A stretch of 63,788 nucleotides of DNA, the filler included, from Phoronis australis (taxonomy: Eukaryota > Animalia > Phoronida): NCBI GenBank assembly GCA_002633005.1. It is 13 parts of 13 records of this genome, joined end to end, with 100 filler letters (N's around TTAATTAATTAA, not from the genome) between each part and the next. Parts side by side here need not be neighbours in the genome. Positions count along the whole stretch, not along the records: positions 15,197 to 41,282 come from NMRA01000331.1; 12 more parts are not named here. One strand, given 5' to 3'. Positions 15,197 through 51,540 of the stretch are shown here, piece by piece; within the stretch, counting starts at the first letter, position 1, and the number at the start of each line of letters is the position of its first letter. The notes below the pieces were generated by a model. It was not told where the DNA came from and did not search any database. It saw nothing but the letters and a program-made list of their open reading frames with translations. Position numbers and translations under genes: made by a program.

Positions 15197-16288
15197 GAAA
15201 CTTCTCTCAACAATGAGCTAGCCATTATCCATGACTGGCTGATTCAAAATAAACTCACTCTTAACGTTAGTAAAACCAAGTCGATGCTGTTTGGAACCCA
15301 CCAGAAATTAAAGCAACAAAAACTATCCCTTTCTATCAACGGTTCTCCCATCGAGAATGTTGACAAGTTTAAGTACTTGGGCCTTATTTTAGATCCCAAT
15401 CTTAAATTTAATATGCACATAGATCATATCACAAAGAAATTATCAAAGAAAATCGGTGTACTTAAACGTCTAGGCAAATTTCTTAATGTCCGTACCCTTA
15501 AGACCCTTTACCATTGTATTATTCAGCCTCACATTGATTATTGTTTACCGGTTTGGGGGCACACTAGTGACACACTTGTAAACAAAGTCCAAGTAATCCA
15601 AAATAGAGCCGCCAGGGCTATCCCGGGTACTAAAATTAGGGACACTAGGGTTGACGACTTGTACTCCAAGCTGGGATTTATGAAAGTAAGACAAAGAAAT
15701 AAATATCTCTCTGCCTGTTGTATATACAGATGTATCAATGGCTTGGCTCCAGCATATCTCAGCAGTAAATTCAATAGCAGTCAGGCTGTTTATTCTACAC
15801 GTTCTTCTGTTGCTGGCAATGTTTCTTCTAAAAAAATTAAAACCGAGACTGGCAAGAGATCTTTTATCTATGCAGCTGCTATAATATGGAATTCTTTTAG
15901 CCCAGAAATCAAACGGTCCAACTCAATTACTACCTTTAATGTTAATGTTAAAAAGTGGCTGTAATTTACTTAACCTTTTATACCCTGCCTATCTTAATCA
16001 TGTCATTTTTTCATTGTCGTAAATACTCTCATTGTCTAGAGTCATCTCTTAATTTATTTCATCTGTCTTAGTTAATTTTTTACCATTATTTGTCATTTAG
16101 TTATTGTCTTAATTCTCAATCTTAACTGTTTTAATTGTATCTTTGTTACGTATATTTCATTGTTGTTTTATTACTTCATTGTATTATATTACTGTTTTTC
16201 TTGTTGAGGGCCCTCTTGGAAAGCAGTGCTATCACTGAAGAGGCCACCCTCATTTTAAATATCACAATAATAAATAAATAAATAAATA
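15197..16288 (+). mobile_element. CR1/L2-clade LINE 3' portion (ORF2 C-terminus open to 15964, 3' UTR stem-loop, (TAAA)n tail)
   Basis: WLIQNKLTLNVSKTKSMLFG...KYLGLILD...IIQPHIDYCLPVWG...QNRAARAI...WNSF; 3' GAGGG-CCCTCTT...AAGAGG-CCACCCTC hairpin region and TAAA repeats. The 5' end is cut by the contig edge. Confidence 0.9.
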
Positions 16289-16569
16289 CCAAATTTCATG
16301 AAAATCTGTCAGGACTTTTGAAGATACAAAGGTAAGCGTAAAAAACTAAATTTGCCACTAGGGGGCACACCGGTAGTAGGATCAGTCCGAAAGTTCGCAC
16401 ATGCCGTCCCATTCATGAATGGAACATATGTGCCAAATTTCATGAACGTATGTCAAAGGGTTTTGGAGATAGAGCAGTGGACGCCGGATGCCGGACGGAC
16501 GCCGCCCGGACGGATGGACGGAGATGACGGCATAATGCGTCCACATATAAATATGGGGGCGCATAAAAA
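16289..16569 (+). mobile_element. HINE family 1, 3' fragment (interrupted by the LINE)
   Basis: Highly similar to 23520-23784; GGAC microsatellite and terminal ATGCGTCCACAT...ATGGGGGCGCAT hairpin. Confidence 0.8.
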
Positions 16570-17872
16570 TGGCACATGTATGCATTGCTTGTGAATAGAG
16601 TTGGGAACAGAAATAGAAATCAACCCTATTACTCAACCTGTGCCAAGTAGCATGAAATAGTCCCAAACAGGGACTCAACAATGTCCCTTAACTTTTTACC
16701 ACACTCTTGAATTTGTGAATATGATATTGTCCTATCTTGAAAGTGAACTCTAAGTTGAATTATTAAACAGTTTCCACCATGACCATGTGTCTCAAAAAGT
16801 ATTTTATTAATACATCTTATGAGATTTAATAGCCTTTAGTATACCTGTAGCTAAAAAACAAGTAAAAAAATTATAAAAATAGTTTTCTGTTATCGGGGTT
16901 GTACGTAATAGGTGGAAGACCGTCTGCACCATTGTTTTTTTTTACCATTGCGAAACTGAGGAGTTTTTGGTAAAGTCTGCAGACAGCCGTCTTTATCAGA
17001 CATGAAAAGTGCATTTGTGGAGGCTGCAGTAAAAACAACTTGACTGAGGAAGTCACTTGTGTTCAAATTCCTGAATACGTGAAAGTTGCACAGAAATGGC
17101 ATTGGTTTGTGTGCCGCATGCGAGTGTAGAATGTCAGTGTGGAACATGCGATTCAGTTGGGAGCCACACTTTGTTCGGCACCTTTCAAGGAATTGTGATT
17201 CAACCAAACACAAAAACGGCATTACGATGAAGGGCTCGCCACCTTGAAAATTTTATAAATAAGGAACAAACTGCTTTCCTTCTAGGGTGAGTGATGCCAG
17301 GCCTCGATCCCGGCCCAGATCGAGTGCTATGACACATAGTAAACATTGTGTTTTGATCGTGCTCATTCCATCATAGCAATAGTGAATTCAAGTGACCCAG
17401 GTTTACTGTGGCCTTTAGTTGGTTGTGGCTCACATGTCTGCAGCATTTCTTGTGCAAGTGGTCAAGTTCGTTATGGCCTCAAAATCAATGAAAGTTCCCC
17501 AAGTGGGAAATCGAATTCACTGTCTGATTCTTCAAGTATTTGAGTGTGATACCCATGTCATCTCCCTCACTGTCTGCATAATAATTGTCCAGTTTTCCTG
17601 ATCTTCTGCAATTGATTGTCAAGTGACCAAACATCTTCCGCCCATTACATCATTTGGCGGGAAACTTGGCAATAACTAATTTTTCTTCAAATTAAAAAAA
17701 TTGCGATTATTTGGCATAAAAAATGCTTACTTAGTTAGATTGTATGGTATTCATTTCATATTAGCTAAATCAAACCTCAAAAACTACGAAAATGCATGGG
17801 GGAACTCTTCAACATTACTGACAATTAATAGGGTATGTTTTCACACAACATCCCTTATTTAAGGACTACGTA

Positions 17873-19642: not shown

Positions 19643-22600
19643 CTCTCGCTGACTGAGGGTTCCACTGAAGTAAGCTTGCCCTAGTCTCCACAAGTCAGGG
19701 AAAGTGTCCGAGAGTACATCTGTCAATGACTCAACAAATTCCACTTTTTGAGGTGTTTTGAACTTTCCCGCTAAAAATAATAAAACTGCATGAACAATAT
19801 GGCAGATAATCATTCCAACACAGGGAAACTGGAAGGAAAAGCAAATTTGATCAAATGCATGCATGAGAAGTGTTTGAAAAACAGCTGTTTACAAACTGCC
19901 AACAAGATGAACAGTCAAGTTTTCCAAAAATTCATTATCCAAAGAGAATATCATCTTTGCATACATACGCAAGTCCACACAAAAGCTACTTAGTTCATTG
20001 ATATGCACACATGCGCATCTAAATTTAGTAAATATGTCACAGGTACTCATTTTTAAAAATATTTCGACGGCATTTGAAAGCATCTGTAAATCTCAGTTAA
20101 GCTATAGAGCTCATCATGAACACATTGGCAGCTATTGAGGGAGACTCAATGACAACTTGCCACTAAGGGGCACCAAAGTTCTTACAATTACTTCTGAACT
20201 GTTTCCATTGTATTTTTGTAATTAACATTGAAAAAGGAAAACTCCACTTCAGTCTTAAGCTGATCTCTGTACTGTACAGCTGTGATGAATCAACCCTCAC
20301 GGTAAAATTTTGGAATATTTCTTGCAAACTAGTTAGTTTCTGAATACTCAAAAATAAGAAAACTGGCAATGATTTCTCAGCAAAATAGCGTAGCAGATCC
20401 TTGCAGCAAGATAGCCAAAACTACTCGTCAAGTATACAAGCAGTAAGGGAGCAGATTAAAGTAAACATTATTTGAAAAACTGGAGACCCATATCCTTACT
20501 AAATGTGACATATAAATTGGCTTCTTCGGCTGTGGCTGAAAGGTTAAATCCCGTTTAAGGAAAACTAATCAGTAAGGACCAGACAGGCTTTGTTTCTGGA
20601 AGAAATGTGAACGAAAATATCCTTGTGCTATATGATTTAATGTTTTATGCCCATTTAGCTAAAAAAACCAGGACTGCTCTTACTGATCGATTTTGAGAAA
20701 GCATTTGATTCATTGTAGTGGAATTTTATTCAAAAAACTTTATCTTTCCTTGATTTTGGTTGGTTGACGAGAAGGTGCGTAAGAGTCTTTTACAGTAATA
20801 TTAAGGTGTGTGTTATCATAAATGGTCACCCATCTTCCTGGTTCAATGTTTCGTGGGGCTGCAGACAAGGTGACCCTTTGTCTGCCTACACTTTCAAATT
20901 GTGCGCGGAGCTTTTGGCGTATTTAATCAAGAATAATAAAAACATTACCGGCGTAGTTGCAGGAAATAATGAATATTTGATTTCGCAATATGTGGACAAC
21001 TCACCAATTACTTTGGATGGGTCGAATTTGCGATTGACTAGTACATTGAATGTACGTACTACATTTGGTTGCTAGTGTCTCCGGTCTCCACGTCAATGTG
21101 GATAAAACAAAAGCAATATGGTTAGGAAGTAAAACTGGTAGTGATGACGGGATTCCTATAAAAGAAAGCCCGTCTTGGACAAAAAAACCTTTTTGATTTT
21201 GGGGGTGGATTTTGACACTTAATTGGATAGTATGACGCATAAGAACTTCACTGCAAGAATGACTAAGATTAAGTCTTTATTAAAAAATTCAACACCGTTT
21301 GGTAGAGTAACTAAAATGAAAACATAAGCTATTTGTAAGCTTATTTTTTTGTTGTCAAGTTTACCAAATCCACCAGTGAAAGTCTTAGATGATTTGAATA
21401 CGATATTCTTTATATTTGTATGGCAGGCTCCTAATGATAAAATTAAATGAACTACGGCCTGTTTCGGACTAGACAAAGGGCGACTTCAAATGATTAATAC
21501 ATACTTTCAGCAAAGCTTTAAAACCCGACATGACCCTAAGATATCTTGAAAGCCCTGCGTCAAAAAGTGGTCAGTTACTATACTCCGTCTAACCATTCTT
21601 AAAAAAATTTTGCTTCATTTGGAGAAGACTTTATTCAGTCGAAGTTAACTCAATTGATAATTCCTAACGGTGCAACGTATTTGCAAGTATGACATCTTTT
21701 GCTCAGTGGTGAATCTACTGCATCATAATCTTCACTTGAGAATGAAACACGTATGTTTCGAAATATCGTGTGCCTTTTAATTATGTCGCTAGGTCAGTTA
21801 CTGCATCTATGTTCAGTTGAGAGTAGAGTTTTGTTCTGAAGGTACGAACGTAACGGAAAAAAGACTTTGAACAATGAAAAGTGTCGTGCGTTTAACCAAT
21901 TCTGTATCTTTCTATAAGAAAATAAATGTTGCGAGTAAAGAAGACTTTTTGAAGCAAACTTTGTGGTTTAATGGTAACTTGGGAATCGGAGACAAAAGTG
22001 TTTTTTATAAGTCTTGGAACTTTATAAAAGGCTTAAGATTTATCAGAGATATGTATACCTCTGATGGCAATTTCATTTGTTTAGACCATATCATAAATGT
22101 GATCCATGTAAAAACCAACTTTGTAGAATATTATGGTGTTGTCTATGTTCTAAGAAGGTTTCAAAAAAGTCTATCTCAAAGTAAATTTAAAAGACAGTGT
22201 TCATGTCTATTCTCCTTGCATGCCTTTAGCGGTTACTCAGATACCGGAAAGATATGAAGGGTTGTAGACATATTCTTTCTATCTTTAACGACATTAAGAA
22301 ACCTTCTAAGTCAGAGTGTAAATGGGAAACAGAATTAGATTTGAAGAAAATATGCGCATTGCCTTATGAAATTACAAAGGATCCCAACCTTAGATGGTTC
22401 CAATTTAGAATATTACACAGGATTACTGCAACAAATACAATTTAGTCAAAATCCAAGTTCGGTATTCTAATTCATGTTCCTTTTATAATAAAGCTCCAGA
22501 GACACTGTCACACCTTTTCTGGGAATGTCGTCTTGTACAAGATTTTTGGAAAGAATTCAGAAAACTACAGTCAAAAGTGTCTCATTCAGCTTGCCAACTG

Positions 22601-25600
22601 TCTCTCTTACAAACGTGTTATTCTTAGACTTAATGAGACACATGATATTCTATTTAACATTTTGCTGTTTAGCCAAATGGTACATTTACAAGGCTAGAGA
22701 GATGGCACAAAATATACCTAATATTCACAAGATTGTTACATATACTAATGAGCACTATAATGCTGAAAAATTGCATATAAAAATTGTGTATGACAGCTTG
22801 TCTGTGAAATGGGAAAATTTCATTGTTCAAGCTAACTCCATGTAGCAGTTGTTTACTTTATACGAGATACGAGAATGGTCTTTCCTGAGGTGTGCATGCA
22901 TGAATAAATGGATGTACTTGTTTCTTTTTGGACTTGTATATCAATGATAATAAATATCTGAAACAAGAGCAACGTGGATCGTTGAAATGCGCCCACGAAT
23001 GCATTGCAAATGGTGTGCTGTTAGGGTTATTTATTTGTATCATAAAAATGGCCACTAGATGGCGCAAAAACATACAATCCATCCAAAAAGAGGAACATGC
23101 CTCATTTCACAAAAATCTGTCAAGGAACTTCAGAAAAACAAAGGAAAACAGAATAAAATGAAATTAGTGGGCACAGTGTCCGTTGGATCCGCCTGAAAGT
23201 CATTGTCGTCTGTTGTTATCTTGAAATAAATACACTTACTAAATTTATTAAAGATCCTGCACTGGGTTTAGGAGATAGAACTATAGGCGCAAAACAAAAC
23301 TACCACTAGGAGGCCCCACAGTAGTCAGTCACCATCATCAAAGGTTGTCTTCACACTGAGAAACATATATGCCAATTTTCAGATGATTTGGTTGATTTAG
23401 GGGTGGACGCCAAAAACAAGATTTGAAAACAACAAAAATGGCCACTTGGTGGCGCAAACTATGTCGAATCCATACAAAAATGGGAGGATAGCACCATCTC
23501 ACTAACAGGTGCCTAAATACCAAATTTCATGAAAATCCCTCCAGGACTTTTGAAGATACAAAGGTAAGCGTAAAAAACTAAAATTGCCACAAGAGGGCAC
23601 ACCGGTTGTCGGATCCGTCAGAGTTTGGTCATGCCGTCCCATTCATGAATGGGACATATGTGCCAAATTTCATGAACGTATGTCAAAGGGTTTCGGAGAT
23701 AGAGCAGCAGACGCCAGATGGAAGCCGCCCGGACGGAGATGACGGCATAATACGTCCATATATAAATATGTGGGCGTATAAAAAGTATACAGGCAGTAAA
23801 CACTTAAATGCAAACTAGTTAATAAAATGGCCACTTTCGGTAACCTTCTTACCATTGGGGTCTCCTCCAGGTACATTGAGACTGGGTGGATGTGGTGTGG
23901 CTGAAGGAAAAGTGACAATTTGAGACACACACAGCAGGATCTTAAAAATCAACAGAAAGCTAGATATATTCTTGGGTGACAATTTTGACAAAATCTTAAG
24001 TAAAGAACCACGAAAACCATTGAGGTGTGCCCACAATGCACCACAAATGGTATGATTCTAGGGGTGCTGATCGGGTTCGTTAAGATACATGACCACTTCT
24101 TGACTTCTAGGGTAGGTGCAATAGTCAATGTCAAAGAAAAAGTGATGGTATCTCACCATTTAAACCAACATCAAATTAAAAAAGATAAGAAAATGAAGAT
24201 AACAAAAATTTCAAATAAGAAATCAAAATGAAAGAATGGAACACAACACTAGGTATAAAACATGTCAGGTGCCGTCAATTTCTTTTCACAAGAGCAATGC
24301 AGAGTAGTGAAATGCACCTATGATAGCACAGCAAACGGTGTTCTTCTATGGGTGTTTCTAGTATGATAAAAATGGCCATTAGATGGCGCAAAATGCATCA
24401 CACCCATCCAAATTGAGAAGGTAGCATCGTCTCTGTAACACACAACTATTTGCCAAATTTCATGAAAATAAGCCAAGGAACTCTCAAGATATAGAGGCAA
24501 ACTAAAGGTAAAAAAACAATTGAAACTAGGCGGCACAGCTATAGTTTGACATGTCAGAAACTCATCATCATCTGTTGCCATCTCTATAGAAGACTATCTG
24601 CCAGATTTCGCAGCTCTTCCAAAGGGTGAAGGTGACACAGTCATAGATGCAAAAAAGCAAAATTGTCCCCAAGGGGAACCAGACTAGTCAAAAACATCAG
24701 AAAATCAACATCAGCCAAGGTCTTTGGATCAGGAACACAAATGTCAGGTTTCATAATCATCCTTCAAGTGGATTGGCAGATAAAGAGGCAGACAGTAAAA
24801 ACATACGTGGAAATTTTTAAATGGCCACCAGGTCCTGCAAAAACGTCAAATCGGTCTTTTGGATGGTTCGGCAGGGCGGCCAGAATTAAAAATACAGGCA
24901 AAATATAAACAACAGCAACAAAAGGCATTGAAATGCGCCCACGAATGTAATACAATTGGTGTGCTTTTACGGTCTATATTTGTATCATAAAAATGGTCAC
25001 TAGGTAGAGCAAAAACGTCAAATCTGTTCGAAAACGGGAACATATCACTGCTTATTGAATAGAAAGCTTTTCACCAAATTTCATGAATAACTATCAAGGA
25101 ACTTCAGAGAAACAAAGGAGCACGCATTCATTGGATCCACCTGAAAGTCTATTGTTAGCTTCATATAAATACACTTACATGACTGTACGAAATTTAATAA
25201 AGATCCTACAGTGGCTTTAGGAGATACAGCTCTGGGTGCAAAACAAAACTACCACTAGGAGGCCCTGACAGTAGTCAAAGACGTCATTCTCAACCGTCCT
25301 CTTAACACTGAGAACATATACGCCAATTTTCAGAACCATCCTTTGAATGGTTTGGTTGAATTTGAGGGTTGGATGCTAAAAAACACTCAAAAACAGTAAA
25401 AATGGCAACTAAATAGCGTAAAATACCTCGACTCCACCAAAAAACAAGAGGATAGCATCATCTCAAAAATAGATACCTTTATTCAAAATTTTAAGAAAAT
25501 CCATTGAAGGCCTTTGAAGATACAGACTGAGGTAAATGTAAAAAACTAAAATTGCCACTAGGAGGCACACAGATAGTCATATCCATCCGAAAGTCATTGT

Positions 25601-28600
25601 CGTCCGTTGTCAACATCATATAAATAGTCCTGAGAAATTTAGTAAAGATCCTCCAAACGGTTAAGGAGATACAGCCATAGATGCAAAAAAGCATAACTGC
25701 CACTAGGAGGCGCCACGGTAGTCAAAGTGGTCTGAAAATCATCATCCGCCATCCACTTTGTAGTAAAATCATAGACTCCAATTTTCACAATCTTTCTTAG
25801 AGTGTTTCAGTTGATAGAGGGCTGGACGCCAAAAAAACAGACTAGAAAACAGTAGAAATGACCACGAGTTGGCGCAAACTATATTGAATCCATCTGAAAA
25901 CAGAAGGACAAAGTCATCTTACTAATAGATGGCTAAATGCCAAATTTTATGCAAATATGTGGAGGACCTTGGACGACACAGAGGTAAATGTAAAAAGATC
26001 GTAAAATTGCCACTAGGGGGCACACAAGTAATCAGATCCGTCCGAAAGTCATCGTCATCCACTGTCAATTTCATATAAATACACTCATCTTGCTAAATTT
26101 AGTAAAGATCCTGCAAATGGTTTAGGAGATACAGTCATAGGCGCAAAAAGAACAAAACTGGGACTAGGAGGCGCCACAGTAGTCGGAAGTCGTCGGAAAA
26201 TCATTGTCAGCCATCCCCTTCATGGTAAGAACATACATGCCAATTTTCACTATCACCTTAGAGCAGTTTGGTTGATAGCCAATTTTCACTATCACCTTAG
26301 AGCAGTTTGGTTGATAGCAGGGTGGACGCCAAAAACACTCGAAAACCGTAAAAATGTCCACTAAGTGGTGCACACTACATTGAATCTATCAAAAAACGGG
26401 AGGAAAGTGTCACCTCACTAATAGGTGGCTATATACCAAATTTTATGAAAATACGTTGGAAACCTTTGAAGATACAGAGGTAAATGTAAAAATTTAAATT
26501 CCCACAAGGGGACACACTGGTAGCCAGATCCCTCCCACAATTCGCTCATGCCGTCTCATCTATCAAAAGAACACATGTGCAAAATTTCATGAATATACGT
26601 CAAGTAGTTTTGGAGACAGAGCAGCAGACACCGGACACAGGATGGACGCTGGATTGACGAACGGAGGTAAAGGCATAATGTGTCCACATATTAATATGTG
26701 GGCGCATGAAAAGTTACTTGAATACTGACCATTTCCTCAATAATATCAACTGGTGAGCCGTCGGTCAAGTAACAAGAGCAACGCGGACCATTGAAATGAG
26801 CCCACAAATGCACCGCAAACGATGTGCTTCTAGAGTTGTTCATTTCTATCATAAAAATGGCCACTAGATGACGCAACATCTCTAATCCATCTGAAAATGG
26901 ATTGCTTCTTTAATAGAAAGCTATTTACCAAATTTCATAAAAATCTGTAAAGGAACTTCAGAGAAACAAAGCAAAATGGAAAAAAATGAAATTTTGCTTA
27001 GGGGGCACAGCATCCACCTCAAAGTCGTCATCTATTGTTAGCTTCATATAAATACACTTATTAAATTTAATAAAGATCCTACAATGGGTTTACGACATAC
27101 AGCTATGGCCACAAAACAAAACAAAACCACCGCTAAGAGGTGCCACAGTAATCGAAGTTGTCAGCGTAATCGTCCTCTTCACACTGAGAACATATAGGCC
27201 AATTTTCAAAATCATCCTTAGAATGGTTTGGCTGAGAGCAGGGCTTGGAATGACCAATGACAAAAAACGCGGAAACTTTTACGGCCCAAATCATGTCCGA
27301 TAACCAGCCTTGAAATGGGAGGACTAAAAAAAAAAAAAAAAAGAAAAAAAAACGTTACCACCATCAAAAGCATGCGTCTGCGTCCTTTTAGCTCGCCCGT
27401 CCACTCCCAACCCAAACATTTTTGGCTGCAGAGCGGTAGTATTTGTGGCCGCGCTTAACAATAACACGCGACGCCATTGAAAATCACACCACGCTGTCCC
27501 AGATGCCCCGGCAATGTTGACAATTTACGTTCCTCCAAAACATAAAGAGCAACTTCCGCTTTTCGAGGTGAACGTCGTCTGCAACGCAGCGGTAAGAAAG
27601 GAATTTGACGCGGAAATTTGAAAAAAGCGGAAATCCGCCTTTCCGCGGAAAATTCCAAGCCCTGTGAGAGAGAAGGGTGGACACCAAAAAACAGTAAAAA
27701 CTACGAGAAGCAAAATACCTCGAATCCATCTGAAAATTGAAGGATAGCGTCACCCCAATAATACATATTCCGAATTTTATGAAACTCTGTTGAGGACCCT
27801 TGAATATACAGCGGTAAACAAAATACTAAAATTGCCACGGGGGGGGGGGGGGGGGGGGNCTGGTGATCAGATCCGTGCGAAAGTCATCATTCGTTGTCCA
27901 TATCATATAAATACACTTGCTAAATTTAGTAAAGAGCCTGCAAACTGTTTAGGAGATACAGTCATGGACGCAAAAACAAAACAAAACTGTCACTATGAGG
28001 CAGCACAGTACTCGAAGTCATCGGTTGAAATACATAAATGACAATTTAAAACACACTTGCAGTAACGAAAATAGCACTTTGTATCCCGTTTCGGCGGCAC
28101 GTAGAAAAATCGCACTCAAGTGGTCAGGCCTAGCATTAGCAGCCAACGCCAACGGGCGTACATGCGGGATCAAACAAAAGAATTTCATACATCACTCACA
28201 TCCCACAAGTCCAATCCAACGAATAACCGGTTACGGTTGAATTTCATTTCAGGAAGCGTTGTTATTTCTAGTGTTTCATAGTTTTCAGTCGATTCTCCGA
28301 CTCCACTTAGTCCAAGACGACTCGGCCACGCACTCCGTAATTGTTCCTCTCTCAAAGTTTACAGAGCACAAAGCTTGGTTTGTGACCGTTTCTTTTATCC
28401 ACTTTTTCCACGAAATATTCAGTCTACTCAATGCTCCATGCACTTTTGACCGCAGAATCGCACTACTCGTCACCGCCACTTTATATCAAATGCAGACGCC
28501 AATGATGAACCACGCTATCCCAGGCACAGTCACTTGAATTTATCTCGATTGCCACTGACATCACTCTGTACTAAGAAAATATGGTTCTTATATATGGTTA

Positions 28601-34600: not shown

Positions 34601-37600
34601 CATTAGCACTCACAAATACTGCAAAAGCATTACAAATTGTAGCTAATGAGACGGACTTTGTTTCAGTTAAAAGTATTGGTTAGGATGAGAACAATTCATT
34701 TTGAAACAGAACGCAGAATAATAAATGTCTACATGGCAACTCATCCGGCACCAATCCTGATTTAGTCAAGAGCTCATCCGACGAAGACTTCATGGGTCGG
34801 ATCGTTAGGTTTCACAGGCTATCAGTTTGAACCAGAATACACTGATCAAGAAATACTAGAGAGGCGCCGTGAACATGCACAGGCAATGGAACGTATGAAT
34901 AGTTCTTTGAGCCAGAATTCGTTAGAGAAATCACTGTCGATGAAATACCGGCCACAGACATGGAGATGTTTCACGGCCTCATACTTGCTATTAACAGTGT
35001 ATCTTTCATTCCTTACTACTGTGAGCCACTTCCTAAGCATTTCGGGCTCTCGAGAAAGTCAAAAAAACGATGTACCCGCTTTCTTTGCAGCTTCACAGTT
35101 CGAACAAGCGGGAACGATGTACCGCAAGATAGCGGCATTCACTCTGCAGACGAAGCACTCACATCGCTGTGTCATTTCTCACCTTCCTCACAGGTTAACG
35201 CGACACCTCTCGGCAAGGTGAGGTCGACCGTACAAGAGGCGATGTGGATATAGACCGATTAAGACGGTAAAAATGACTAATTAAATTGGGTGGCATTCTC
35301 CTTTAATGGTCAGCAAAGAGGGGAGAGGGATAGTTCTATATTGGAAGTTGTTTATAATGACATCTTACTAGCAATACATTGTATGAAATGAAAGGTTCAG
35401 AACTGACCTTTCTTGAACAGTTGGACTTCAGTATCGCCAAACAGAGACTTCACTCTGGCATAGTCATTAATAACAAGGTCATAGTCTCCCTGGAAGAAGC
35501 ATAAAAGTTAAAAGATCATCAAGTCATTCCAACATACCTTCAATGGAATAAGGCGTAGGAAATCTGATTAAGGGTCTAGATCTATGATCCACTCCAAGAA
35601 ATCCCTTTCTTTGAGACTTCCATATGTTGAATCTCTGCTGTGGTATGACCATCTTTTGTTTTTGTTGGGGTGAAATTTGCGAGAGAATGTAATTACATTT
35701 AGAGTCATGTCTGTGTTGTTGTGAGACATAATGTCTGCTACTCAGAAGCAGAAAAAGCATCTGTTGCATCAAAACAGAACAGTCAAGATCAACTAAGTTC
35801 TGACTGGAAAAGCCCAAGAGGTCGAAACAAAAGTTTAGCCAGACCACTAAATTCACTGATGGCACCGAAAAACCCTGTGCAGCACAGCTAAATCCAATGG
35901 CTATCTCAAAAAATACTATGCCCTGTGGCCACACCAGGTAAATTTGATAGCTAGGGACCAACTCAGTGGTCGGTGTTGAATCCAGGGGTAGGGAAAGAAA
36001 TACTACGCATGGACCAAAGGTTTGACAGTAATTGACTGTTGGGTGAATAAGGTACATGCAAGTGTAAAACTATTATACAGTAAAATATACCTTTTGTATG
36101 TTTCTTTTCATCATAACTGGTAGATAGAAAAGGAAACGGAATCTATTGAGCACACTTAAAGCATTGCGAGTGGAATCTGCTGTGTCTTTACGTTTGAGAA
36201 CATCTTGAAATAACTTGTCCGCAACAAAGTTAGCATCTAAAAGAAAAGATGCATCAGTTAGGTACGACTCACTTCAAATGAAACACAAGCATGATGTAAA
36301 CGCAAAAGCGATGCAAATCATTGAAATGCATCACTGACTGGACCGCAAATGATATGTTCCTAGGGGTGTTCATTGGTATCATAATAATAATAGGTGACAC
36401 AGAATATGTTGAACTTGTAGAAAAATTAAAAGACCTTTCGTCTCACTAAGCATTGAAATGCGCACATGAATGCACTGCAAATAGTGTGCTTCTAGGTGTG
36501 CTTATTTTTATCATAAAAATGGCCACTGGATGGCGCAACATACGTCAAATCCATCCGAAAACGAGAACAAGCCATTGCTTCTTTAATAGAAAGCTATTTA
36601 CCAAAATTCATAAAAATCTGTCAAGGAACTTCAGAAAAACAAAGGAAAACGGAAAAATGAAATTGCCACTATAGGGCACAGCCTTGGTTGGATCTGCCTG
36701 AAAGACATCGTTATCAGATGTAACTTCATATACCGGTAAATACAATTACTAAATTTAATAAAGATCCTGCAGTGGGTTTAGGAGATGCAGCTATGGGTGC
36801 AAACCAAAACAAAGCTACCACTAGGAGGCGCCACAGTAGTCAAAGTCGGCATCGTCAACCGTCCTCTTCACACTGAGAACATATACGCCAATTTTCAAAA
36901 TCACCCTTAGAATAGTTTGGTTGATAGAGGGGTAGATGCCAAACAAAGACTCGAAAACAATAAAAATGGCCACTAAGTAGCGCAAACCATGTCGAATCCA
37001 TCCGAAAACAGGAGGATAGTGTCATCTCACTAATAGATCTATATGCCAACTTTAATGAAAATACGTCTAAAACCTTGGAGATAGTGCTAAATGTAAAAAA
37101 CTAAAATTATCACTAGGTGGCACACCAGTAGCCAGATCCATCCGAAAGTTGTCGCTGTCCGTTGTCAACATTATACAAATACACTTGCTAAATTTAGTAA
37201 AGATCCTGCAAATGGTTTAGGAAATACAACCAAAAAAAAACGAAACGGCAACAAGGAAGTGCCACAGTAGTCGAAATTGTCGGAAAATTATAGTCAGCAT
37301 TCCTCTTCATTGTAAGAACATACATGCCAATGTTCACAATCATCCTTAGAGTGGTTTGGTTGATAGAGGGGTGGACGTCCAAAAACAGAGTAAAAAAAAA
37401 ACAAAAAAACAGCAACAACGGCCACTAGGTGGTGCAAACTACCTCGAATCCATCCAAAAATGAGAAGATAGTGTCTACATGCCAAATTTTATGAAAATAC
37501 GTTGAGGACATTTGAAGATACAGAGGTAAACGTAAAACTAAAACTGTCACTAGGGGGCACACTAGTACTCAGATCCATCCGAGTGTTTGCTCCTCCGTCC

Positions 37601-40600
37601 TGTGCATGAAAGGAACAGGTGTGCAAAATTTTATGAATGTATGTTGAACAGTTTTGGAGATAGAGCAGCTGACAACAGACGGCTGGACAAACAGACGGGG
37701 ATGCGTCCATATATAAATATGTGGGCGCATCAAAATCCGTCTGTCTGAAAGTCCTTGTTCGTATTCACCTGCATATGAGTAAACTTGCTAAATTTAATAA
37801 AGATCCTCCTGAGGGTTTTGGAGATATAGTCCTGGACGTAAAAAAAACAAAACTGCTACAAATTTAATAAAGATACTCCTGAGGGTTTAGGAGATATAGC
37901 CCTGGGAGTAAAAAAACAAAACTGCCACTAGGAGGTGCCACAGTATTCAAGGAAAATCATCATCAGTTGTCCTCTTCAATTAGGAACATACATGCCAATT
38001 TCCACAATCATCTTCAGACTGGTTCTGTTGACACAGGGGCAGAATCCACAAAGACTTGGAAACAGTACAAATGGCCACTAGATGGCGGTTTGATTGATAC
38101 GGGGGCAGACTCAAAAACATTTGATCATGCTGGCATGGACCTCTACTGCAACAAACAGAACCACAGCCGAGTTCCTAGTTTTGTTTGTGAGAATACACAT
38201 GTACAAATAGGTCACCAATGGCTTCAAAATCATTTTCAACAAAACATGTACTTCACAGTGACGATAATAATGACACAGTAGTGGGGAGCATATTTTGAGA
38301 ATTTTCAATCTTTCTCCTATCAGAAAATACATTTAATGGTTGACAAAGCATTAGTTTTTTGATATTTGAGGTCATTTGTTAAGGACCTAGATAACATTAA
38401 ATTAAAAGAGAATTAACTCAGCAAGCAATTACCTCCCTCAATACTTCAATAAACCTAAATCAATAACACATTTTGCAACAGGAACATTTACTAAACCTAG
38501 TAAATTTCTAGCCTACCATGTCGCGGGAACATGTAAAGGCAAAGATAGCCTACCATTTTTGTGCCACAAAGACTGCTGTGAATGAAAGCTTTTTAAAGCT
38601 TAAAAGATGTTTTCATGACGCACTTAGGGCACATATAATGCAGATCACAAATATACGGAAAACAAGTTATGAAACATGCCTGTCACTCATGAAAGCACAA
38701 AAAGGGCTTCACAATCGGATGTATCCACCTGAATAAACCATACACTATTACAGAGTACCTAAAGATAAACAAGCACATTAATGATATTTTGCAAATATTT
38801 TCTTTAACATTAACTAAATAAATGTGAATTAACAATAAAACATGAATGTTATTGACAGCATGATTCATAAAAATGTCAACCAAGACACTTAACATTAGAC
38901 TACCACTCAATGCCAAAATCCTTCAAATGAAGTCAAATTTCATAGAAATAGTTTTCCCACTCATTTGTGCTATGAAATAGCTTGCCTGATCACATAATCC
39001 TGTCATCACGATAAGAAAACAACGCAACACAACTATACGGTACCTACACTGTCCGTTTGAGTCAACCAGACACCTGCAGGAACAAAGCTTGGCATGTCAG
39101 TGGGTTATTGTTGTCAGAATAAATATTGATTAAGTAATTAGTAAGAATAGATCCACTTCAAGTTGCCCAAAATTTGGGCATATGTACTTTTTTAAATCAT
39201 GGGGTCAAACTTGCTGACATGTATTTTAACGTCAAAATCTATTCTTAGATGGTGTATAGTTTACTGCTTTGGTTCTGGGGTCAAAGCACTCTAGACATTC
39301 TAGAAATTTCTGAGAGCAAATTCTAACAGCCATTTATATGATTAGATAAGATCATGTGGTTTTTATTAGCCAATCGCTAAATAAGAAGAATATTATAATA
39401 TGGGCTGAAATTAAGTGGATATTACGATGAGCTATAGTAGTTGAAGTATTAAGACTTGCTACAGTGTACAGAGGAAATTGCACAACAGAGCCATCTCGTG
39501 GAAGATTCTAAAGAGGATCTTGGCAAGGGCAAGGGTTAACGAACAGGAAGTTAACTAAGAACTTTTCACTTGCATAGTGGGTAGTAAGATACTGCCTATA
39601 TGTGTTGCGTCAAGAGGGACTGTGACCAGCGAGTGGAATCGTAGGTAGAAAATACTGCAGGCAAGCGCTGCGTCACAAGAGACAGTGATCAGCAAGAAGA
39701 ATTGTGGGTAGAAGATACTGCCTGTAGTTATTGTGTCACCAGACTGTGACCAGTAAGCACACTGTCGCAATACAGTGTGCGTAGTTCAAAGATTCACCAA
39801 CAGGACTGTCATCCAACAAGTGGAGAGTCCTACAGCTTGGACAGCAGATAAGACATTTGATTATTTTGGTTGATAGATTGAAATAAACTCTACAGAGGGC
39901 GCTAGCATAGTTACTCTTCTTTACAGTTAATTACTTAATTAACAACAGCTTTCATTTGTCTAATTAGTGGTTATCATATAATAAATTAATTACTGGATTC
40001 AATCATTTTCCCTCCATCTACACACAATCTCAAAGCAAAGCTACTTTTTAAACAAACCCACAGTCAATCTCTGACAATTGTCAATCACAATCTATGAATG
40101 GGATCAAAGGCTTGGTGTTATGGATATACTACTGCGTTTGCTTTCCCCAGGACCCATTTTGATAATGCGGCTCTATACAGCAAGTTTCTGTGAAATATGA
40201 TCACAACACATTCTGCTGTAGCTTGCAAGACTTCCATCATGTTGGCGCTGCACTTGTGGGACTTTGATGTGGTAGCTATGATAGGCATGTCCTATCTGCC
40301 TTGAGTTTGTCAGAGCTATTCATTGACTTCATTAGTATTACAACAACTGTAAGGAGGTCCTAAACTTGACGAAATATCTGGACTTGGGACTTACTTCCAA
40401 GAATCTGATGCAGATCATTTGTTATGCAGCTATTTTCAATACATCTTCGACTGTTGTCACTCATCAATCGTGTATGCATGGCTGAAATAAAATAAGATAG
40501 TTTAAGACATTGTACACTAAGGGGTGACATGTCCATATGCCAAAAAAGTTATCACACACAAATTCTTAATTCTTTGCGGAAGAGTGACTTCCTTTTATCA

Positions 40601-40925
40601 GACAGTGAATTCAACTAGTAAAGAAATGTAATAATAACACAAGTTCAAACACACATATGGAAAAGGGATTAAGGATACAAAAACAAATTTACTAAAACAC
40701 CTTTCAAGAGCCCACCTTCAAGGCTATCTTGACACACACATGGAAAAGGGATCAAGGATACGAAAACACAGATTTACTGAAACACCTTTCAGGAGCCCAC
40801 CTTCTAGGGTATCTTGACACTCCATAAAAGTGGATAAGTTCTGTTTAACAAAGGCCAGAGGTCCTTCTGCTCTGTTCTTATCTCTTCGTTTTAAGTACGT
40901 CAAACCTGCTTTTAAATCTTCAAAA
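19643..40925 (-). CDS. EXOC2: Exocyst complex component 2 (Sec5), partial, 9 exons
   Basis: Phase-compatible GT-AG exons: 40801-40925 ([41 protein letters not shown]), 40395-40481, 36091-36236 ([32 protein letters not shown]), 35408-35489 ([27 protein letters not shown]), 33062-33164, 30861-30973 ([20 protein letters not shown]), 29095-29181, 23853-23900 and 19643-19770 ([35 protein letters not shown]). The two linker exons (29095, 23853) rest on splice signals and phase only. Confidence 0.93.
20455..22860 (+). mobile_element. Decayed L1/Tx1-clade LINE ORF2 (RT to C-terminal zinc finger)
   Basis: Frameshifted motifs [35 protein letters not shown] (YADD position), [12 protein letters not shown] and [11 protein letters not shown] ~200-bp insert lies at about 21701-21905. 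Confidence 0.9.
22962..23784 (+). mobile_element. HINE family 1 (Helentron-associated, DINE-1-like), full-length ~820 bp, with CTCF-like motifs
   Basis: 5' ACAAGAGC...ATGCGCCCAC is inverse to the 3' GTGGGCGTAT; internal ~150-bp units; GGAC microsatellite remnant; 3' hairpin followed by an A run. Confidence 0.8.
24287..28020 (+). mobile_element. Head-to-tail cluster of HINE family 1 copies (about 24287-24860, 24909-26712, 26771-28020)
   Basis: Repeated 5' starts ACAA(G/C)AGCAA..TGAAATG; a 3' hairpin ending at 26712; tandem units with CCAAATTTCATGAA and CCACTAGRNGGC. Confidence 0.8.
27239..27664. mobile_element. hAT-type MITE nested in a HINE, apparent 6-bp TSD (TGAGAG)
   Basis: 13-bp perfect TIR CAGGGCTTGGAAT / ATTCCAAGCCCTG; host repeat resumes after the insertion. 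Confidence 0.8.
28021..28843 (+). mobile_element. Truncated longer relative of the 27239 hAT family
   Basis: Same right end AAATCCG...GAAAATTCCAAGCCTTG; internal 28030-28440 matches the reverse complement of about 55825-56205. Confidence 0.65.
31087..32895. mobile_element. Old TIR DNA transposon with (C)CGAATTT/TTTCGGACA subterminal repeats
   Basis: TAAAAATTCCCGAATTTA near 31090 and the inverse TAAATTCGGAAATTTTTA near 32876. Ends are diverged. Confidence 0.5.
33687..35302 (+). mobile_element. Kolobok-type non-autonomous DNA transposon (1.6 kb)
   Basis: TTAA TSD (33683-33686, 35303-35306); perfect TIR AGGAGAATGCCACCCAA / TTGGGTGGCATTCTCCT with AG...CT termini. Confidence 0.85.
36451..38115 (+). 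mobile_element. HINE family 1 copy (36451-37735) plus extra tandem units
   Basis: Same 5' motif and ~150-bp units; GACA/GGAC microsatellite; 3' hairpin ATGCGTCCATAT ATAAAT ATGTGGGCGCAT. Confidence 0.8.
39578..39758. repeat. Degenerate ~63-bp minisatellite (3 units)
   Basis: GTRGGTAG..ARATACTGC...GACWGTGAYCAG recurs three times. Confidence 0.6.
40650..40820. repeat. 85-bp tandem duplication covering an EXOC2 5' splice site
   Basis: GGAAAAGGGAT..AAGGATAC...AAACACCTTTCA.GAGCCCACCTTC..GG.TATCTTGACAC occurs twice. Confidence 0.9.
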
Positions 40926-40996
40926 CTGGAAGAAACAAAAAAACAAATCAATGCAAGAAACACCTGGGCTCAAGCAATAAATGAAAGCGCTCTGAG

Positions 40997-44222: not shown

Positions 44223-44423
44223 CTGATTGGTCAATTCACTAGAAAGGCGCCATCAAGTGGCAGGAATATGCATCATATTTTGTGCAACAAAAACACCTTT
44301 TTTAAAAAAATGTGCAAGTGTAACTGATTGGTCAATTCACTAGAAAAGCGCCATCAAGTGGCAGGAATATGCATCATATTTTGTGCAACAAAAACACCTA
44401 TTTTTAAAAAAATGTGCAAGTGT
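44223..44423. repeat. 101-bp tandem duplication containing CTGATTGG (CCAAT box) and a CTCF-like motif
   Basis: CTGATTGGTCAATTCACTAGAAA.GCGCCATCAAGTGG...TGTGCAAGTGTA occurs twice. Confidence 0.9.
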
Positions 44424-44539
44424 AGACGTGGGAACTTTTTGGAATTTGATTTTTCGTTATATTATCTAGCCACATAGAAAAAACTAGGTTGCCCCCCCAA
44501 AGTACTCACAAGGATGAACGCTATGAGATTTGGCCCACC

Positions 44540-45524: not shown

Positions 45525-46175
45525 CTTCTGCAGCAAAGTACACCCTCTGACCCATACTGTTCTTAATCTCATACTTGTTGTTGGTCTCAAATCCAGTAAA
45601 AGCTGAAACAGATAACAAGGTCGTGACAATCCCTGATAGGTATACACTTTATGTCTGCTTCCAGCTGCGTAAATGAATTCTAGAGCTAACTGGCATAACT
45701 GCATTTAATCTACAATATAATAAAAGGTGTTGCTGAAAACGATGGAGAATCCTTTCGAAAAATAACTTGTCAAAGTTGACTTGATGATCTTATAAAACAT
45801 TTTCTTTCTAGCATTGCAGAACCATTTCCCATTTACTGAAGATCCGTTTTGGTAAAGACCAAAACACGAGGGTTCCATGACACAGTCACACATAAGTGAC
45901 TGGTTATTCACTGCACCCCAACCCAGCAGGAATATATAAGACACAGTACTGTTGGAATTATCTAATTTTCAGGACAGCAATGCAGGTAACGTAGTGATCA
46001 CTAAATGGATTGCTTGAAAGTTCCATGAATATCAAGACATACAATTCAGACAAGGTCATACCTTCCAGCAGCTCCACCTGTTGGTGGACTAGAAGCTGGT
46101 CAATCATAGTGAGGTACTCCAGGCCTGGCGGACAGTTGGCAGGCATTGGAGGTGGTGCCATCCATTGGCCACCGC
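45525..46175 (-). CDS. PLSCR: Phospholipid scramblase (PLSCR family), partial, 2 exons
   Basis: Exons 46062-46175 ([37 protein letters not shown]) and 45525-45602 ([26 protein letters not shown]); GT-AG sites; phases compatible. Confidence 0.93.
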
Positions 46176-47872: not shown

Positions 47873-48223
47873 CTGTAAGAAAATTAAAGACTGAGTAAAA
47901 AATCAATTATAGAAAACAAATTTCGCAGATAAACAGAATTCAACGATGGCCTTATTTGCAAACAAACATTTAGTCAATCTGATTCACTTTGGCATTCTAA
48001 AAGTTTCTGCATTCCTATTCTAACAGTTTACAGACAATGAGCGATGTCATATAAAGAATTGAGCAAAATTTTAATGACTTGCCTGTATATCTGATCAACG
48101 CGTTTGCCACAGATGAGAGGAACAAGAATTGAAGAGCAAGATGTAACCCAGTGAATCCCCAGCCAGTTCCCTAATAGCTAATTTTGCATAAATAAGTGGA
48201 GATGGACCCAAAGATTTAGAACA

Positions 48224-50035
48224 ACAAGAGCAAGCTGAAATGCTCCCACGACTGCACGCAAACTGTGTGCTTCTAGAGTTGTTTATTTGTATCACAAAAA
48301 TGGCCACTAGATGGCGCATATCATCCAATCCATCTGAAAACGAAACACGCCATCGCTTCTTTAATACAAAGTTATTTACCAAATTTCATAAAAATCTGTC
48401 AAGGAACTTCAGAGAAACAAAGGAAAAAAATGAAATTGCCACAAGGAGGCACAGCGTCCGCCTGAAAGTTATTGTCTATTGTTAGCTTCATATAAATATA
48501 CTTATTAACTTTAATAAAGTTCCTGCAGTGGGTTTAGAAGATACAACTATGGGCGCAAAACAAAACTACCACCTGACAGTATTCAAAGTCATCATCGTCA
48601 ACAGAATGGTTTGGTTGATAGAGAGGTGGACGTAAAAAAACTCGAAAACAGTAAAAATGGCTGCTAGGAGGCGCAAAATACCACCAACCCATTTGAAAAC
48701 TGCAGGATAGCATCACCTCACCAATAGATGTTTACCGTAATCGTTCGGGTTAACGCCCATGCTCAGTTAACCGCCCATCCCCGACCTTAAGTGGATTTTC
48801 GATTTAACCGCCCACTGCTCGGTTAAGCGCCCCCCTGCGATTTTTGAAGATTTCCAGTCAAGCGCCCACCTCTCGGTTAAGCGCCCATCCCCGACTTTTA
48901 AAGAATGAAGATTTAGCGCCTAGTGCTAAGGAAACGCGCGATTCTCCGACTTTTAGAAAAAGATCGATGATCACAATGAGTGCAACGACGCCGGGACTCC
49001 GAGACGGTGGTTTAGCAATCTGAATTACAATACAGGTAACGAGTTATTGTCTTGGGTCATGAACTCACTTCAAAATATAATACTTGAACTTTATGTCACT
49101 TTATTTTCTTCCCTTGTTTGCAAAGTTTAAGAATGCCGCCGGCGTCAAAACCTCCGCTTTCAGCGACTTTGTCTGCCGCGCTGAATTTCCGTCTGCAGTG
49201 CATTAGATAAAACATACATGTATATTCAAAAAGATCAGGCCAGAGAAATGTGACAGTGGTTTGCGCCAACCCTCCAAATTCTATTAAGGTGGGAAGCTCT
49301 CGTATTTTGAACAAATCTCACTTATGCAGGGTCACATCTTGAAACAGTTTTAATTCTAGTGGAGGCTGCGAGGTCACTGGTCCTCTGCGCACCGCAGGAC
49401 GACACGGGGCTATTACTCAGCAATTTTGTAAATTTAATAGTGAATGACTAATCTGAGGGCAAGAGAACCTTTGTTGGGATCATCCGCTGTTATGACGTTG
49501 TCACAGTCATTTGGCGACGTGACGATAAAGCTCTTTGAAAAGGGCTACGCGTTCGGAGTATGACTGTCGTGTCGGGATTTAGATCGCCAGGTAAGATTAA
49601 CCGCCCAGGGCGGTTGTCTCACGTAATAAGCGCCCATGTTCGGTTAACCGCCCATCCCCTACTTTAGGTGGATTTTCGATTTAACCGCCCACTGCTCAGT
49701 TAACCGCCCTCCCCCGATTTTTTGGATTCGCCAATTTAACCGCCCAGGGCGTTAACCCGAACGATTACGGTATATTCCAAATTGTATGAAACTCCATTGA
49801 GGACCTTTGAATATACAGGGGTACCCGTAAAAAACTAAACTTGCCACTAGGGGGCAAACTGGTAGTCAGAGAGGTACGGAATTTATTGTCTAATGTCGTC
49901 AGCTTGATAGGAACACATCTGCCAAAAATCTCATCAAGATCCTGTGAGGGGTTTAGGAGATACAGCTGCTGACACCGGATGCCCAGAAAGAGATGAAGGC
50001 AATATGCGACCAGATAAAAATATGTGGGCGCATAA
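48224..50035 (+). mobile_element. HINE family 1 copy carrying nested MITE A
   Basis: 5' AACAAGAGC..TGAAATGCTCCCAC; CTCF-like units; 3' ATATGTGGGCGCATAA. Confidence 0.8.
48735..49770. mobile_element. MITE family A, complete 1036-bp copy
   Basis: 24-bp perfect TIR CCGTAATCGTTCGGGTTAACGCCC; TA TSD; many GTTAA(C/G)CGCCC subterminal repeats. Confidence 0.92.
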
Positions 50036-51540
50036 CGATCGATATTTTGTCAAGTCATCAAAACTTCTCCATTGCAATAATCATAATGAAACTAAGAGGT
50101 TACACTGAGTCCCCCAATTCTCAATTTCACACGATTAAAAATTTTCACAGGACAAAAAACCTCTGGATAACAAACAGGAAAAGAACTGTCATTCAAACCA
50201 TTTTGACACCTAATAAACATAAACAACTGAATACAATGAAATGCTCAACATCACCACAAGAGCTTACAAAGTCCAAACAAGCACATGAAAATGAGCAGCA
50301 CACCTGAATTGACAGCCCCCAAATAAAAAAAATAGAATTCTTTCACGAAAAATCACCAGAAATCATATTATTGTACACCAAAATTAGAAACATTAAAAGT
50401 GACAAAAAGTCAACCAATAGGTAAGAAAAGAGACCAGCCTTCCTTACCAAGGATCAAATTTTTTAATTAATCAATTATAGACTCGTAAACTATACATTTC
50501 AAAATCCTTGATGATTGCAGAATATCATCAAAATGAATCATTTTGTGTACAAAAATAATTTCTAAATCTTCATGATCATGAGGCGAATGTTTTCTAAAAA
50601 AATCACTGTAATTTCCATAAACATAGATTTTTTAAATTTAAAACTTGAAAACACTGCTTTTTAATCAAAAAGCTACAAACGCACGTCCAGCATTTCGATT
50701 AAAGGCCATTTAGCTCAAGAACTCAGCTGTAAAAAACGAAGACATCATACATTCCTGCAGTTTTGACCCCGAGTCCTTATTGCTAACGTCTTTGAAAGAA
50801 AAATCAGCGGACACACTTGTGTGGCTAATAAAACAAAGAAATAGAATTTGTGGGCTTCGTCTGAAAAAACTGTTTGTGGAATATATAACGATCTCAGTGA
50901 AAATCACAATTGTTTAAAAAAAACGCAGTGATGTTGTTATGAACATCAGGACATTTTGTACATACTAGTAATGTGATTCCTGTGGTCATCAAAGACTTTA
51001 AAATTCAGTTTTATGGGTCAACAATTCCATCCTTGGACACAAAGGTAGCCCAGACCCATTCCCACTGCCAAGAAAACAAATTNNNNNNNNNNNNNNNNNN
51101 NNNNNNNNNNNNNNNNNNNNNNNNNNTTAATTAATTAANNNNNNNNNNNNNNNNNNNNNNNNNNNNNNNNNNNNNNNNNNNNAATGAGACCTGTTTAGAC
51201 AGATTTTTATGTAGATCATGCATGGTTTTTCTTGCAGAAATTCATGCACATTTAATTTTAGTTTCAAGCTAGTTAGATTCCATGCATACGTTTTCAACAA
51301 GCAAATTTCATGTTTGTGTTTTGTTCTAGCACACAAGCATGTTCCATCTATTCTTGTCATTGTAGGCTAAAGCTCACCGGTGAATACCACTTGAAATTTT
51401 GTTCCTACACGGATATTCATAAAAGTCTGACATGAATGCGTCCAATCTTTACTGACCTCATTTGAAGTTTGGCATGATGTTACTTCTGGTTTGTGTGAGT
51501 GTAACTGCATGTTCCATTTTGCAGCTATATTGTTTTTCAG

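What the first reader, a model, noticed from the sequence alone, without database searches (positions are those of the whole stretch)
22962..28020. HINE family whose ~150-bp tandem units each carry a CTCF-consensus motif, forming co-oriented arrays
Seen in sequence: nearly every internal unit contains a variant of CCACTAGRNGGCRC. Examples: CCACTAGATGGCGC (23052, 48304), CCACTAGGGGGCAC (16355, 26010), CCACTAGGAGGCGC (25700, 36818), CCACTGGATGGCGC (36523). I count more than 30 by hand including degenerate ones, all on the + strand. Consecutive starts at 25252, 25406, 25555, 25700, 25863, 26010 and 26161 give about 145-163 bp spacing. The motif looks better conserved than the surrounding unit. 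Established: CCASYAGRKGGCRS is the bilaterian CTCF core, site orientation governs loop-extrusion blocking in vertebrates, and mammalian SINEs spread single CTCF sites. Inference: this rolling-circle-derived element could act as a mobile, nucleosome-spaced, polarised insulator cassette, here packed into EXOC2 introns. I do not know whether this has been described for this family.
Basis: partly seen in the sequence, partly recalled or inferred. Interest (0 to 1): 0.85.

Follow-up and report, generated by a model that had tools for sequence, protein, structure and literature searches.

The report
Jumping element keeps CTCF docking sites
A very common non-coding jumping element in a likely invertebrate genome carries, in each of its ~145-base repeat units, a strong match to the binding site of the chromatin protein CTCF; the match is preserved across the element's unit types but decays in inserted copies, so it likely helps the element spread and likely is not a boundary kept by the host.

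Summary
Observation confirmed. A recalled CTCF matrix finds 32 hits (p<1e-4) in 6,910 bp of element copies, all on +, against 1.2 in shuffles. The span 22962-28020 is four copies of a non-autonomous Helentron-type element (HINE anatomy on the minus strand) in an EXOC2 intron. The units are five diverged classes, 41-62% alike outside the core, yet 11 of 14 core columns are invariant and the 4 between-class changes are all CTCF-tolerated (P=0.003). After insertion the core decays neutrally (P=0.33; CpG test). So selection acts on transposing masters, not on host loci. The polarised-insulator reading is weak: the host looks invertebrate, where CTCF orientation does not set loops, and 140-180-bp units are generic for oyster HINEs, which lack CTCF words. 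Extra finding: RNA reads from many loci carry the element 20-90:1 in one direction. CTCF binding, a host CTCF gene and the autonomous partner are untested. This scan holds no look-alike of this family, but noted other transposon-borne CTCF arrays on other DNA.

The parts
22961..23784 (-). HINE copy 1, complete, units A-B-C-D-E (canonical 5' end at the right, 3' end at the left)
   Evidence: Termini seen directly; depth steps up at 22961-22963 and flanks are diverse, agreement 0.38-0.45
22970..22984 (-). 3' terminal hairpin (CAACG...CGTTG); the family-majority letters at 22975 (C) and 22979 (G) would extend the stem to 6 bp
   Evidence: Sequence; majority letters from reads
22987..22996 (-). 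3' subterminal inverted repeat ATGCGCCCAC
   Evidence: Pairs with 23770-23779, 1 mismatch in 10; no variant listed among the 40 of 54 rows shown
23750..23784 (-). 5' end: T-run, subterminal inverted repeat (23770-23779) and its nearby inverted partner (from 23750), forming a hairpin
   Evidence: the equivalent end at about 26678-26709 folds into a 13-pair stem
23710..23745 (-). Degenerate (GTCC/GTCY)n microsatellite next to the 5' end
   Evidence: Sequence; same motif class as oyster Cg_HINE
23052..23065 (+). CTCF-type core, class A unit (24.4 bits)
23303..23600 (+). CTCF-type cores of classes C, D, E at 23303, 23442, 23587
24288..24860 (-). HINE copy 2, more diverged, left terminus kept; core at 24376
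24905..26713 (-). HINE copy 3, about 11 units (A, part of B, C, D, B, C, D, B, C, D, E); cores at 24997, 25252, 25555, 25700, 25862, 26010, 26161, 26358, 26502, degenerate at 25406
26770..28020 (-). HINE copy 4, left terminus kept, right end missing; cores at 26861, 27835, 27990
27239..27664 (.). Nested 426-bp element with perfect 13-bp terminal inverted repeats (hAT-like by its ends; label recalled) inserted in copy 4
   Evidence: loose ends at 27239 and 27664
16272..16570 (-). Truncated copy (unit E and 5' end); core at 16355
36300..38090 (-). Cluster: terminal fragment at 36300, 8-unit copy 36450-37736, partial copy to 38090
48222..50040 (-). Copy beside an MCTP-like exon, split by a 26-bp-TIR element at 48733-49772
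40802..40927 (-). EXOC2 (Sec5) exon, profile 52-92
   Evidence: Pfam PF15469 E 2e-8
36091..36261 (-). EXOC2 (Sec5) exon, profile 131-178
   Evidence: Pfam PF15469 E 1e-11
19643..19770 (-). EXOC2 (Sec5) exon, profile 345-380
   Evidence: Pfam PF15469 E 5e-5, just under the cut-off

Best explanation
This is a high-copy non-coding element with Helentron (HINE) end structures whose five diverged repeat-unit types all keep a strong CTCF-type motif, likely because copies that can dock host CTCF transpose better, while inserted copies lose the motif like neutral DNA. Shown: end structures, precise end with many different flanks, motif enrichment, conservation between unit classes, neutral decay after insertion, one-directional presence in RNA. 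Inferred: mobilisation by an autonomous Helentron Rep/helicase in trans; CTCF as the bound protein; the benefit (sites 126-130 bp apart would keep a donor copy nucleosome-poor and less methylated, hence accessible to the transposase). Any insulation at host loci would be a side effect in young copies.
For: Between unit classes: 41-62% identity outside the core, 11 of 14 core columns invariant against 26 of 142 elsewhere; best 14-column window, P=0.0005 by column shuffle; all class consensus sites score 19.8-25.9 bits; the 4 distinct between-class changes cost 4.0 bits against 18.7 expected, P=0.003. After insertion: 44 core changes in 29 units cost 4.17 bits on average against 4.36 neutral, P=0.33; at the core CpG the damaging C>T (matrix position 15) is as frequent as or more frequent than the tolerated G>A (position 16) in 4 of 4 runs: 11.5/7.8, 14.6/12.6, 20.6/12.5, 20.0/16.6%. 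The motif is not generic Helentron cargo: CTCF words are sporadic in 3.35 Mb of oyster Cg_HINE arrays (CCACTAG 54, GGTGGCGC 8, AGGGGGCA 9). Precedents: Helitrons carry bound arrays of heat-shock elements (PMC6927752); DNA transposons carry bound CTCF sites in zebrafish and lamprey.
Against: No binding data, and the host's CTCF gene could not be checked (no genome held); lineage is only 'invertebrate-like', with one cnidarian in the comparison. The matrix is recalled and vertebrate-derived, and the family was picked because it resembles CTCF. Variable core columns are not significantly the low-information ones (P=0.12). Within classes the core deviates a little less than the rest (10.5% against 15.1%, P=0.013), which fits master-level conservation but also weak host selection. 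CpG decay inside the core shows that inserted copies were methylated, so any protection is incomplete. Three B/C units with gaps or runs were left out of class tests (27835, 27990; also 23167, 26996), as were 24376, 24523, 24668, 48661. No autonomous partner was found.
Confidence: 0.55

Rival explanations
1. The conserved box is read by another protein, the Helentron transposase or a different zinc-finger factor, and only resembles the CTCF site.
For: Conservation is at the level of masters, as expected for a transposition signal; in reads the box is as invariant as the subterminal repeat; a second, weaker box (AAATTT) is also kept; binding is untested.
Against: Matches reach p 3e-9 to 7e-9 on a 19-column matrix; between-class changes follow CTCF tolerances (P=0.003); oyster HINEs of the same architecture lack the box; the box is internal, whereas Helitron cis signals are terminal (recalled).
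Confidence: 0.2
2. One reading: the arrays are polarised insulator cassettes that the host uses and keeps.
For: Dense co-oriented high-scoring sites; CTCF motifs are enriched at echinoderm domain boundaries; slightly lower core deviation within classes; a paper title reports Helitron-marked loops in Xenopus sperm (title only).
Against: Neutral decay in copies; no orientation pattern or CTCF looping reported in echinoderms, protostomes and lancelets; several clusters sit inside one housekeeping gene; unit length is generic.
Confidence: 0.12
3. A CTCF site was captured once in the founding unit and stays alike between classes because unit shuffling and conversion happen at this box, without any protein-binding selection.
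For: Reads show many joints between units; arrays vary in unit number.
Against: Class-specific letters persist inside the core (positions 11, 12, 16) and are CTCF-tolerated, which plain homogenisation does not predict.
Confidence: 0.1

Closest known systems
Cg_HINE elements of Crassostrea gigas and HINE/DINE-1 (PMC7492417: parts 1-2 of the text, passages and supplement searches; PMC4067079: passages and supplement search)
   Same: Subterminal inverted repeats, 5' inverted partner, GTCY-type microsatellite, 3' hairpin, T-rich ends, short central arrays of 140-180-bp units always oriented alike within the element.
   Different: Here the array is an ordered set of five classes only 41-62% alike, each with a CTCF-type core; CTCF words are sporadic in the oyster arrays (cells cut at 400 characters); the subterminal repeat words were not found in the Thomas 2014 supplements.
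Heat-shock-element Helitrons of Caenorhabditis (PMC6927752: abstract and passages)
   Same: Rolling-circle elements that carry dense clusters of a host factor's motif.
   Different: There binding and gene effects are shown; the factor is HSF-1; canonical Helitrons.
Transposon-borne CTCF sites: zebrafish TDR13B and other non-autonomous DNA transposons (PMC7182764: passages, supplement 1 search, supplement 2), lamprey hAT-Tip100 #274 (PMC5504073: passages), mammalian SINEs (as cited there)
   Same: A mobile element spreads CTCF motifs to hundreds or thousands of loci.
   Different: Those are vertebrates with ChIP evidence; the passages seen describe no rolling-circle element and no per-unit array; the visible part of zebrafish Table S3 lists no Helitron and the word did not occur in that file.
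Helitron-derived PATC insulators of C. elegans (bioRxiv 10.64898/2026.08.08.743475: abstract and passages)
   Same: Intronic Helitron repeats proposed to act as chromatin barriers.
   Different: Mechanical 10-bp periodicity in a species without CTCF, not a protein motif.
gypsy retrotransposon insulator with tandem Su(Hw) sites (recalled, no call)
   Same: A mobile element with an array of insulator-protein sites.
   Different: LTR retrotransposon, different protein, insulation shown genetically.

Membership tests
HINE (non-autonomous Helentron) | Subterminal inverted repeats near both ends | tested here: met
   10 bp, 1 mismatch, 22987-22996 and 23770-23779; a little shorter than the 11-15 bp; the left one lies 26 bp from the end
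HINE (non-autonomous Helentron) | Short palindrome at the 3' end | tested here: met
   22970-22984; family-majority letters extend the stem
HINE (non-autonomous Helentron) | 5' inverted partner of the subterminal repeat and a microsatellite | tested here: met
   Five right-hand ends in the window share both
HINE (non-autonomous Helentron) | Insertion in T-rich sites, variable T run, no target duplication | tested here: inconclusive
   Ends at 22961-22963 vary by 1-2 bases with A/T-rich, unlike flanks; no empty site was recovered
HINE (non-autonomous Helentron) | Interspersed, non-coding, high copy | tested here: met
   Summed contig depth 345,000-898,000 against about 45-52 on unique pieces, order of 10^4 copies, rough; no Rfam hit
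HINE (non-autonomous Helentron) | Autonomous Helentron partner sharing the ends | not testable with these tools
   No genome held; no Rep/helicase motif in the window; 3 viral-contig hits to the end word share nothing beyond it
CTCF binding site | Match to the core motif above chance | tested here: met
   (matrix recalled)
CTCF binding site | Substitutions follow CTCF tolerances | tested here: met
   Between classes P=0.003; not among inserted copies, P=0.33
CTCF binding site | Upstream (U/M2) motif of vertebrate two-part sites | tested here: not met
   By eye the upstream bases are A-runs; optional even in vertebrates, and ambulacrarian CTCF lacks fingers
CTCF binding site | Host encodes CTCF and binds the site in vivo | not testable with these tools
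Orientation-dependent insulator / loop anchor | Vertebrate-type CTCF loop extrusion in the host | tested here: inconclusive
   Host looks invertebrate; such looping is reported absent there
Orientation-dependent insulator / loop anchor | Sites kept by selection at the host locus | tested here: not met

The most novel reading that the evidence does not exclude
A rolling-circle transposon family has evolved an ordered array of CTCF sites as its own tool: CTCF holds donor copies open for the transposase, and the element inserts almost only in the direction of host transcription, so it has seeded on the order of 10^4-10^5 identically polarised CTCF motifs through gene bodies of an invertebrate, with young polymorphic copies acting as transient chromatin barriers. 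This would be a selfish, loop-independent use of CTCF and a ready route to mass-produce oriented sites.
Probability: 0.3. Interest if true: 0.8.

Novelty: new variant of a known kind. Interest (0 to 1): 0.55.

Why it matters
What CTCF does outside vertebrates is open. A family with thousands of copies, a graded series of intact to decayed sites and probable presence/absence alleles would be a natural experiment on CTCF binding, methylation and insulation in an invertebrate. The contrast between conserved masters and decaying copies points to transposons using CTCF for themselves, a different logic from the usual exaptation story. It also warns that motif scans in this genome are dominated by one repeat. 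The 20-90:1 direction bias in RNA needs an explanation of its own.

Tried and rejected
No whole genome is held, so no genome-wide alignment, empty sites or CTCF orthologue search. Host lineage: EXOC2-exon and CARD searches gave nothing; the ten best EXOC2 relatives carry no species name; a 50-residue MCTP exon gives only 'invertebrate-like'. Metagenome scan: 10 loci; L002, L005 and L007 look bacterial and are chance; L004, L006, L009, L010 are one locus without an array; L001 has two motifs but no family likeness; L003 and L008 are a different animal-type repeat with one strong site each, picked by the motif itself, so not independent, and they match the unit profile only at the motif. Viral scan for the end word: 3 hits with no further likeness. 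Rfam: 0. Tandem Repeats Finder misses the units. Information-content test of variable columns not significant. Poly(A)-signal counts do not clearly explain the direction bias (AATAAA 11 against 5, ATTAAA 3 against 10). No indexed RNA holder was listed; three raw-read RNA runs of the same species label were laid instead. Literature: ten searches showed no listing describing CTCF motifs in HINE central repeats or a Helentron orientation bias in introns; most subscription papers and Repbase/Dfam notes are not covered. Shi et al. 2023 (PMID 36827186, Helitron-marked loops in Xenopus sperm) is not held; only its title was seen and it may bear on novelty. bioRxiv supplements were not seen. PMC13544226, PMC10760524, PMC13438756, PMC12341078: term look-ups only; bioRxiv 10.64898/2026.02.06.704447: abstract only, not used.
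Full report
1. Observation. The motif is real. The consensus with up to one mismatch gives 22 matches against 0.28 expected. A CTCF count matrix recalled from memory gives 32 hits at p<1e-4 in the 6,910 bp of element copies, all on +, against 1.19 in dinucleotide shuffles; the best are at p 3e-9 to 7e-9 over 19 columns. The quoted coordinates hold, apart from 25863 (25862) and 25406 (degenerate). Spacing is 144-162 bp in the longest run, with one 197-bp step caused by a 39-bp duplication.

2. What the element is. Read on the minus strand, each copy begins with a T run, a 10-bp subterminal repeat with a nearby inverted partner and a GTCC-type microsatellite, and ends with the second subterminal repeat and a short hairpin. 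These are the features given for HINE/DINE-1 and oyster Cg_HINE. Laid reads show a sharp end at 22961-22963 with unlike, A/T-rich flanks (agreement 0.38-0.45 in DNA and RNA) and a summed depth of 345,000-898,000 against about 45-52 on unique pieces: roughly 10^4 copies, a crude figure, and run X1 may be the source of the window. The finding's span holds four copies; five more copies or fragments lie at 16.3, 36.3-38.1 and 48.2-50.0 kb. Three Sec5 exons on minus bracket the copies from 23 to 38 kb. The window is a string of pieces joined by N spacers; 15197-41282 is one piece. No Rep/helicase motif lies in the window, so the partner is untested.

3. The units. They fall into five classes, A to E, ordered A-B-C-D-(B-C-D)n-E on + (31 of 37 listed units were assigned for). 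Class consensuses are 41-62% alike outside the core but share 11 of 14 core columns against 26 of 142 elsewhere; no other 14-column window is as good (a second box reaches 8), P=0.0005 by column shuffle. The four distinct changes between classes sit at matrix positions 11, 12 and 16 and cost 4.0 bits in all, against 18.7 for random changes of the same type (P=0.003). A weaker test on column information content was not significant (P=0.12).

4. After insertion. The 44 core deviations of individual units from their class cost as much as neutral changes would (P=0.33). Genome-wide, for the class A core, the only listed variants are the two CpG transitions (40 of 54 rows shown), and the damaging one is no rarer than the tolerated one in all four runs. 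Core deviation is somewhat lower than in the rest of the unit (10.5% against 15.1%, P=0.013), but the rest includes differences between subfamily masters. The simplest reading is that the motif is maintained in copies that go on transposing and erodes, with methylation, in copies that sit still.

5. Specificity. Oyster HINEs have the same build and unit length but only sporadic CTCF words in 3.35 Mb of arrays (cells cut at 400 characters, exact words only), so neither length nor Helentron biology demands the motif. A different animal-type repeat in L003 and L008 has one strong site as its longest shared block, but it was found through the motif.

6. Direction. All nine copies or fragments in the window (four clusters at least) run in the sense of the neighbouring genes. 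In three stranded RNA runs (one study, 18-19% of each read), calibrated on unique EXOC2 intron bins, element reads from many loci are 21:1, 20:1 and 90:1 in that same sense, while other repeats in the window are 0.7-1.6:1. The RNA carries the T-rich strand (A-runs of 5 or more: 62 on +, 2 on -), the opposite of what oligo-dT mispriming would give. The cause is open: insertion into the exposed non-template strand, selection against the A-rich sense, or loss of such transcripts. The bin holding the nested, equally A-skewed inverted-repeat element is also biased about 8:1, which points to a general composition effect and away from CTCF. Local self-nesting could also align neighbouring copies.

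7. Host. CpG observed/expected is 0.72 and the MCTP exon scores 189-207 with named bilaterian invertebrates, 173 with one hydrozoan and 114-128 with two fish proteins. A bilaterian invertebrate is likely; a CTCF gene is then expected but was not seen. In echinoderms CTCF motifs are enriched at boundaries without an orientation pattern (PMC13317027, passages), and a 2026 preprint finds no CTCF looping in protostomes, echinoderms or lancelets (part 1 and passages). This undercuts the polarised-insulator reading. With 126-130 bp between motifs a full nucleosome does not fit between two bound sites, so occupancy would more likely exclude nucleosomes than phase them (inference).

8. Mechanism and verdict. 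Best supported (0.55): selfish docking of CTCF that keeps donor copies accessible. Rivals: another protein's site (0.2), host-kept insulator (0.12), homogenised box (0.1). The element is a HINE by every structural test that could be run. Transposon-borne CTCF sites and Helitron-borne motif arrays are known; their combination, with evidence of selection on masters, did not appear in ten searches, though one relevant paper could not be read. Other notes of this scan describe transposon-borne CTCF arrays in other genomes and a similar host-factor-docking idea for a mollusc element; none matches this sequence. New variant of a known kind; interest 0.55.

Noticed in passing
window 22961-23100 and all copies: Stranded RNA reads from many loci carry the element 20-90:1 in its T-rich, canonical direction, and every copy in the window is co-directional with the neighbouring gene; cause unexplained.
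   Followed up: partly
window 27239-27664: 426-bp element with 13-bp terminal inverted repeats and a long A tract nested in a HINE copy; abundant in RNA, and its bin is also strand-biased (about 8:1).
   Followed up: partly
window 48733-49772, related sequence at 471-893 and 1726-1845: Element with 26-bp terminal inverted repeats and internal ~55-bp repeats, inserted in a HINE copy.
   Followed up: no
window 44223-44424: A 101-bp tandem duplication with a CTCF-type match (about 16 bits) in each copy on minus; a different repeat.
   Followed up: no
window 20160 and 51606: Solitary strong CTCF-type sites (18.4 and 20.6 bits) outside the family; candidates for ordinary host sites.
   Followed up: no
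window, 12 places (e.g. 2572, 15097, 41283): N44-TTAATTAATTAA-N44 spacers join pieces holding fragments of different genes (Lon-type AAA protease 5598-5789, CARD 11866-12168, EXOC2, scramblase 45958-46218, MCTP-like C2 47648-47797), all on minus; neighbourhood across spacers should not be trusted.
   Followed up: partly
L008:377-430 and L008:1499-1520; L003:253-273: Two different dispersed animal-type repeats in one short record each carry a strong CTCF-type site (20 and 27 bits); suggests the motif recurs in other elements.
   Followed up: partly
window 40649-40820: 85-bp tandem duplication overlapping the low-coordinate end of the EXOC2 exon frame.
   Followed up: no
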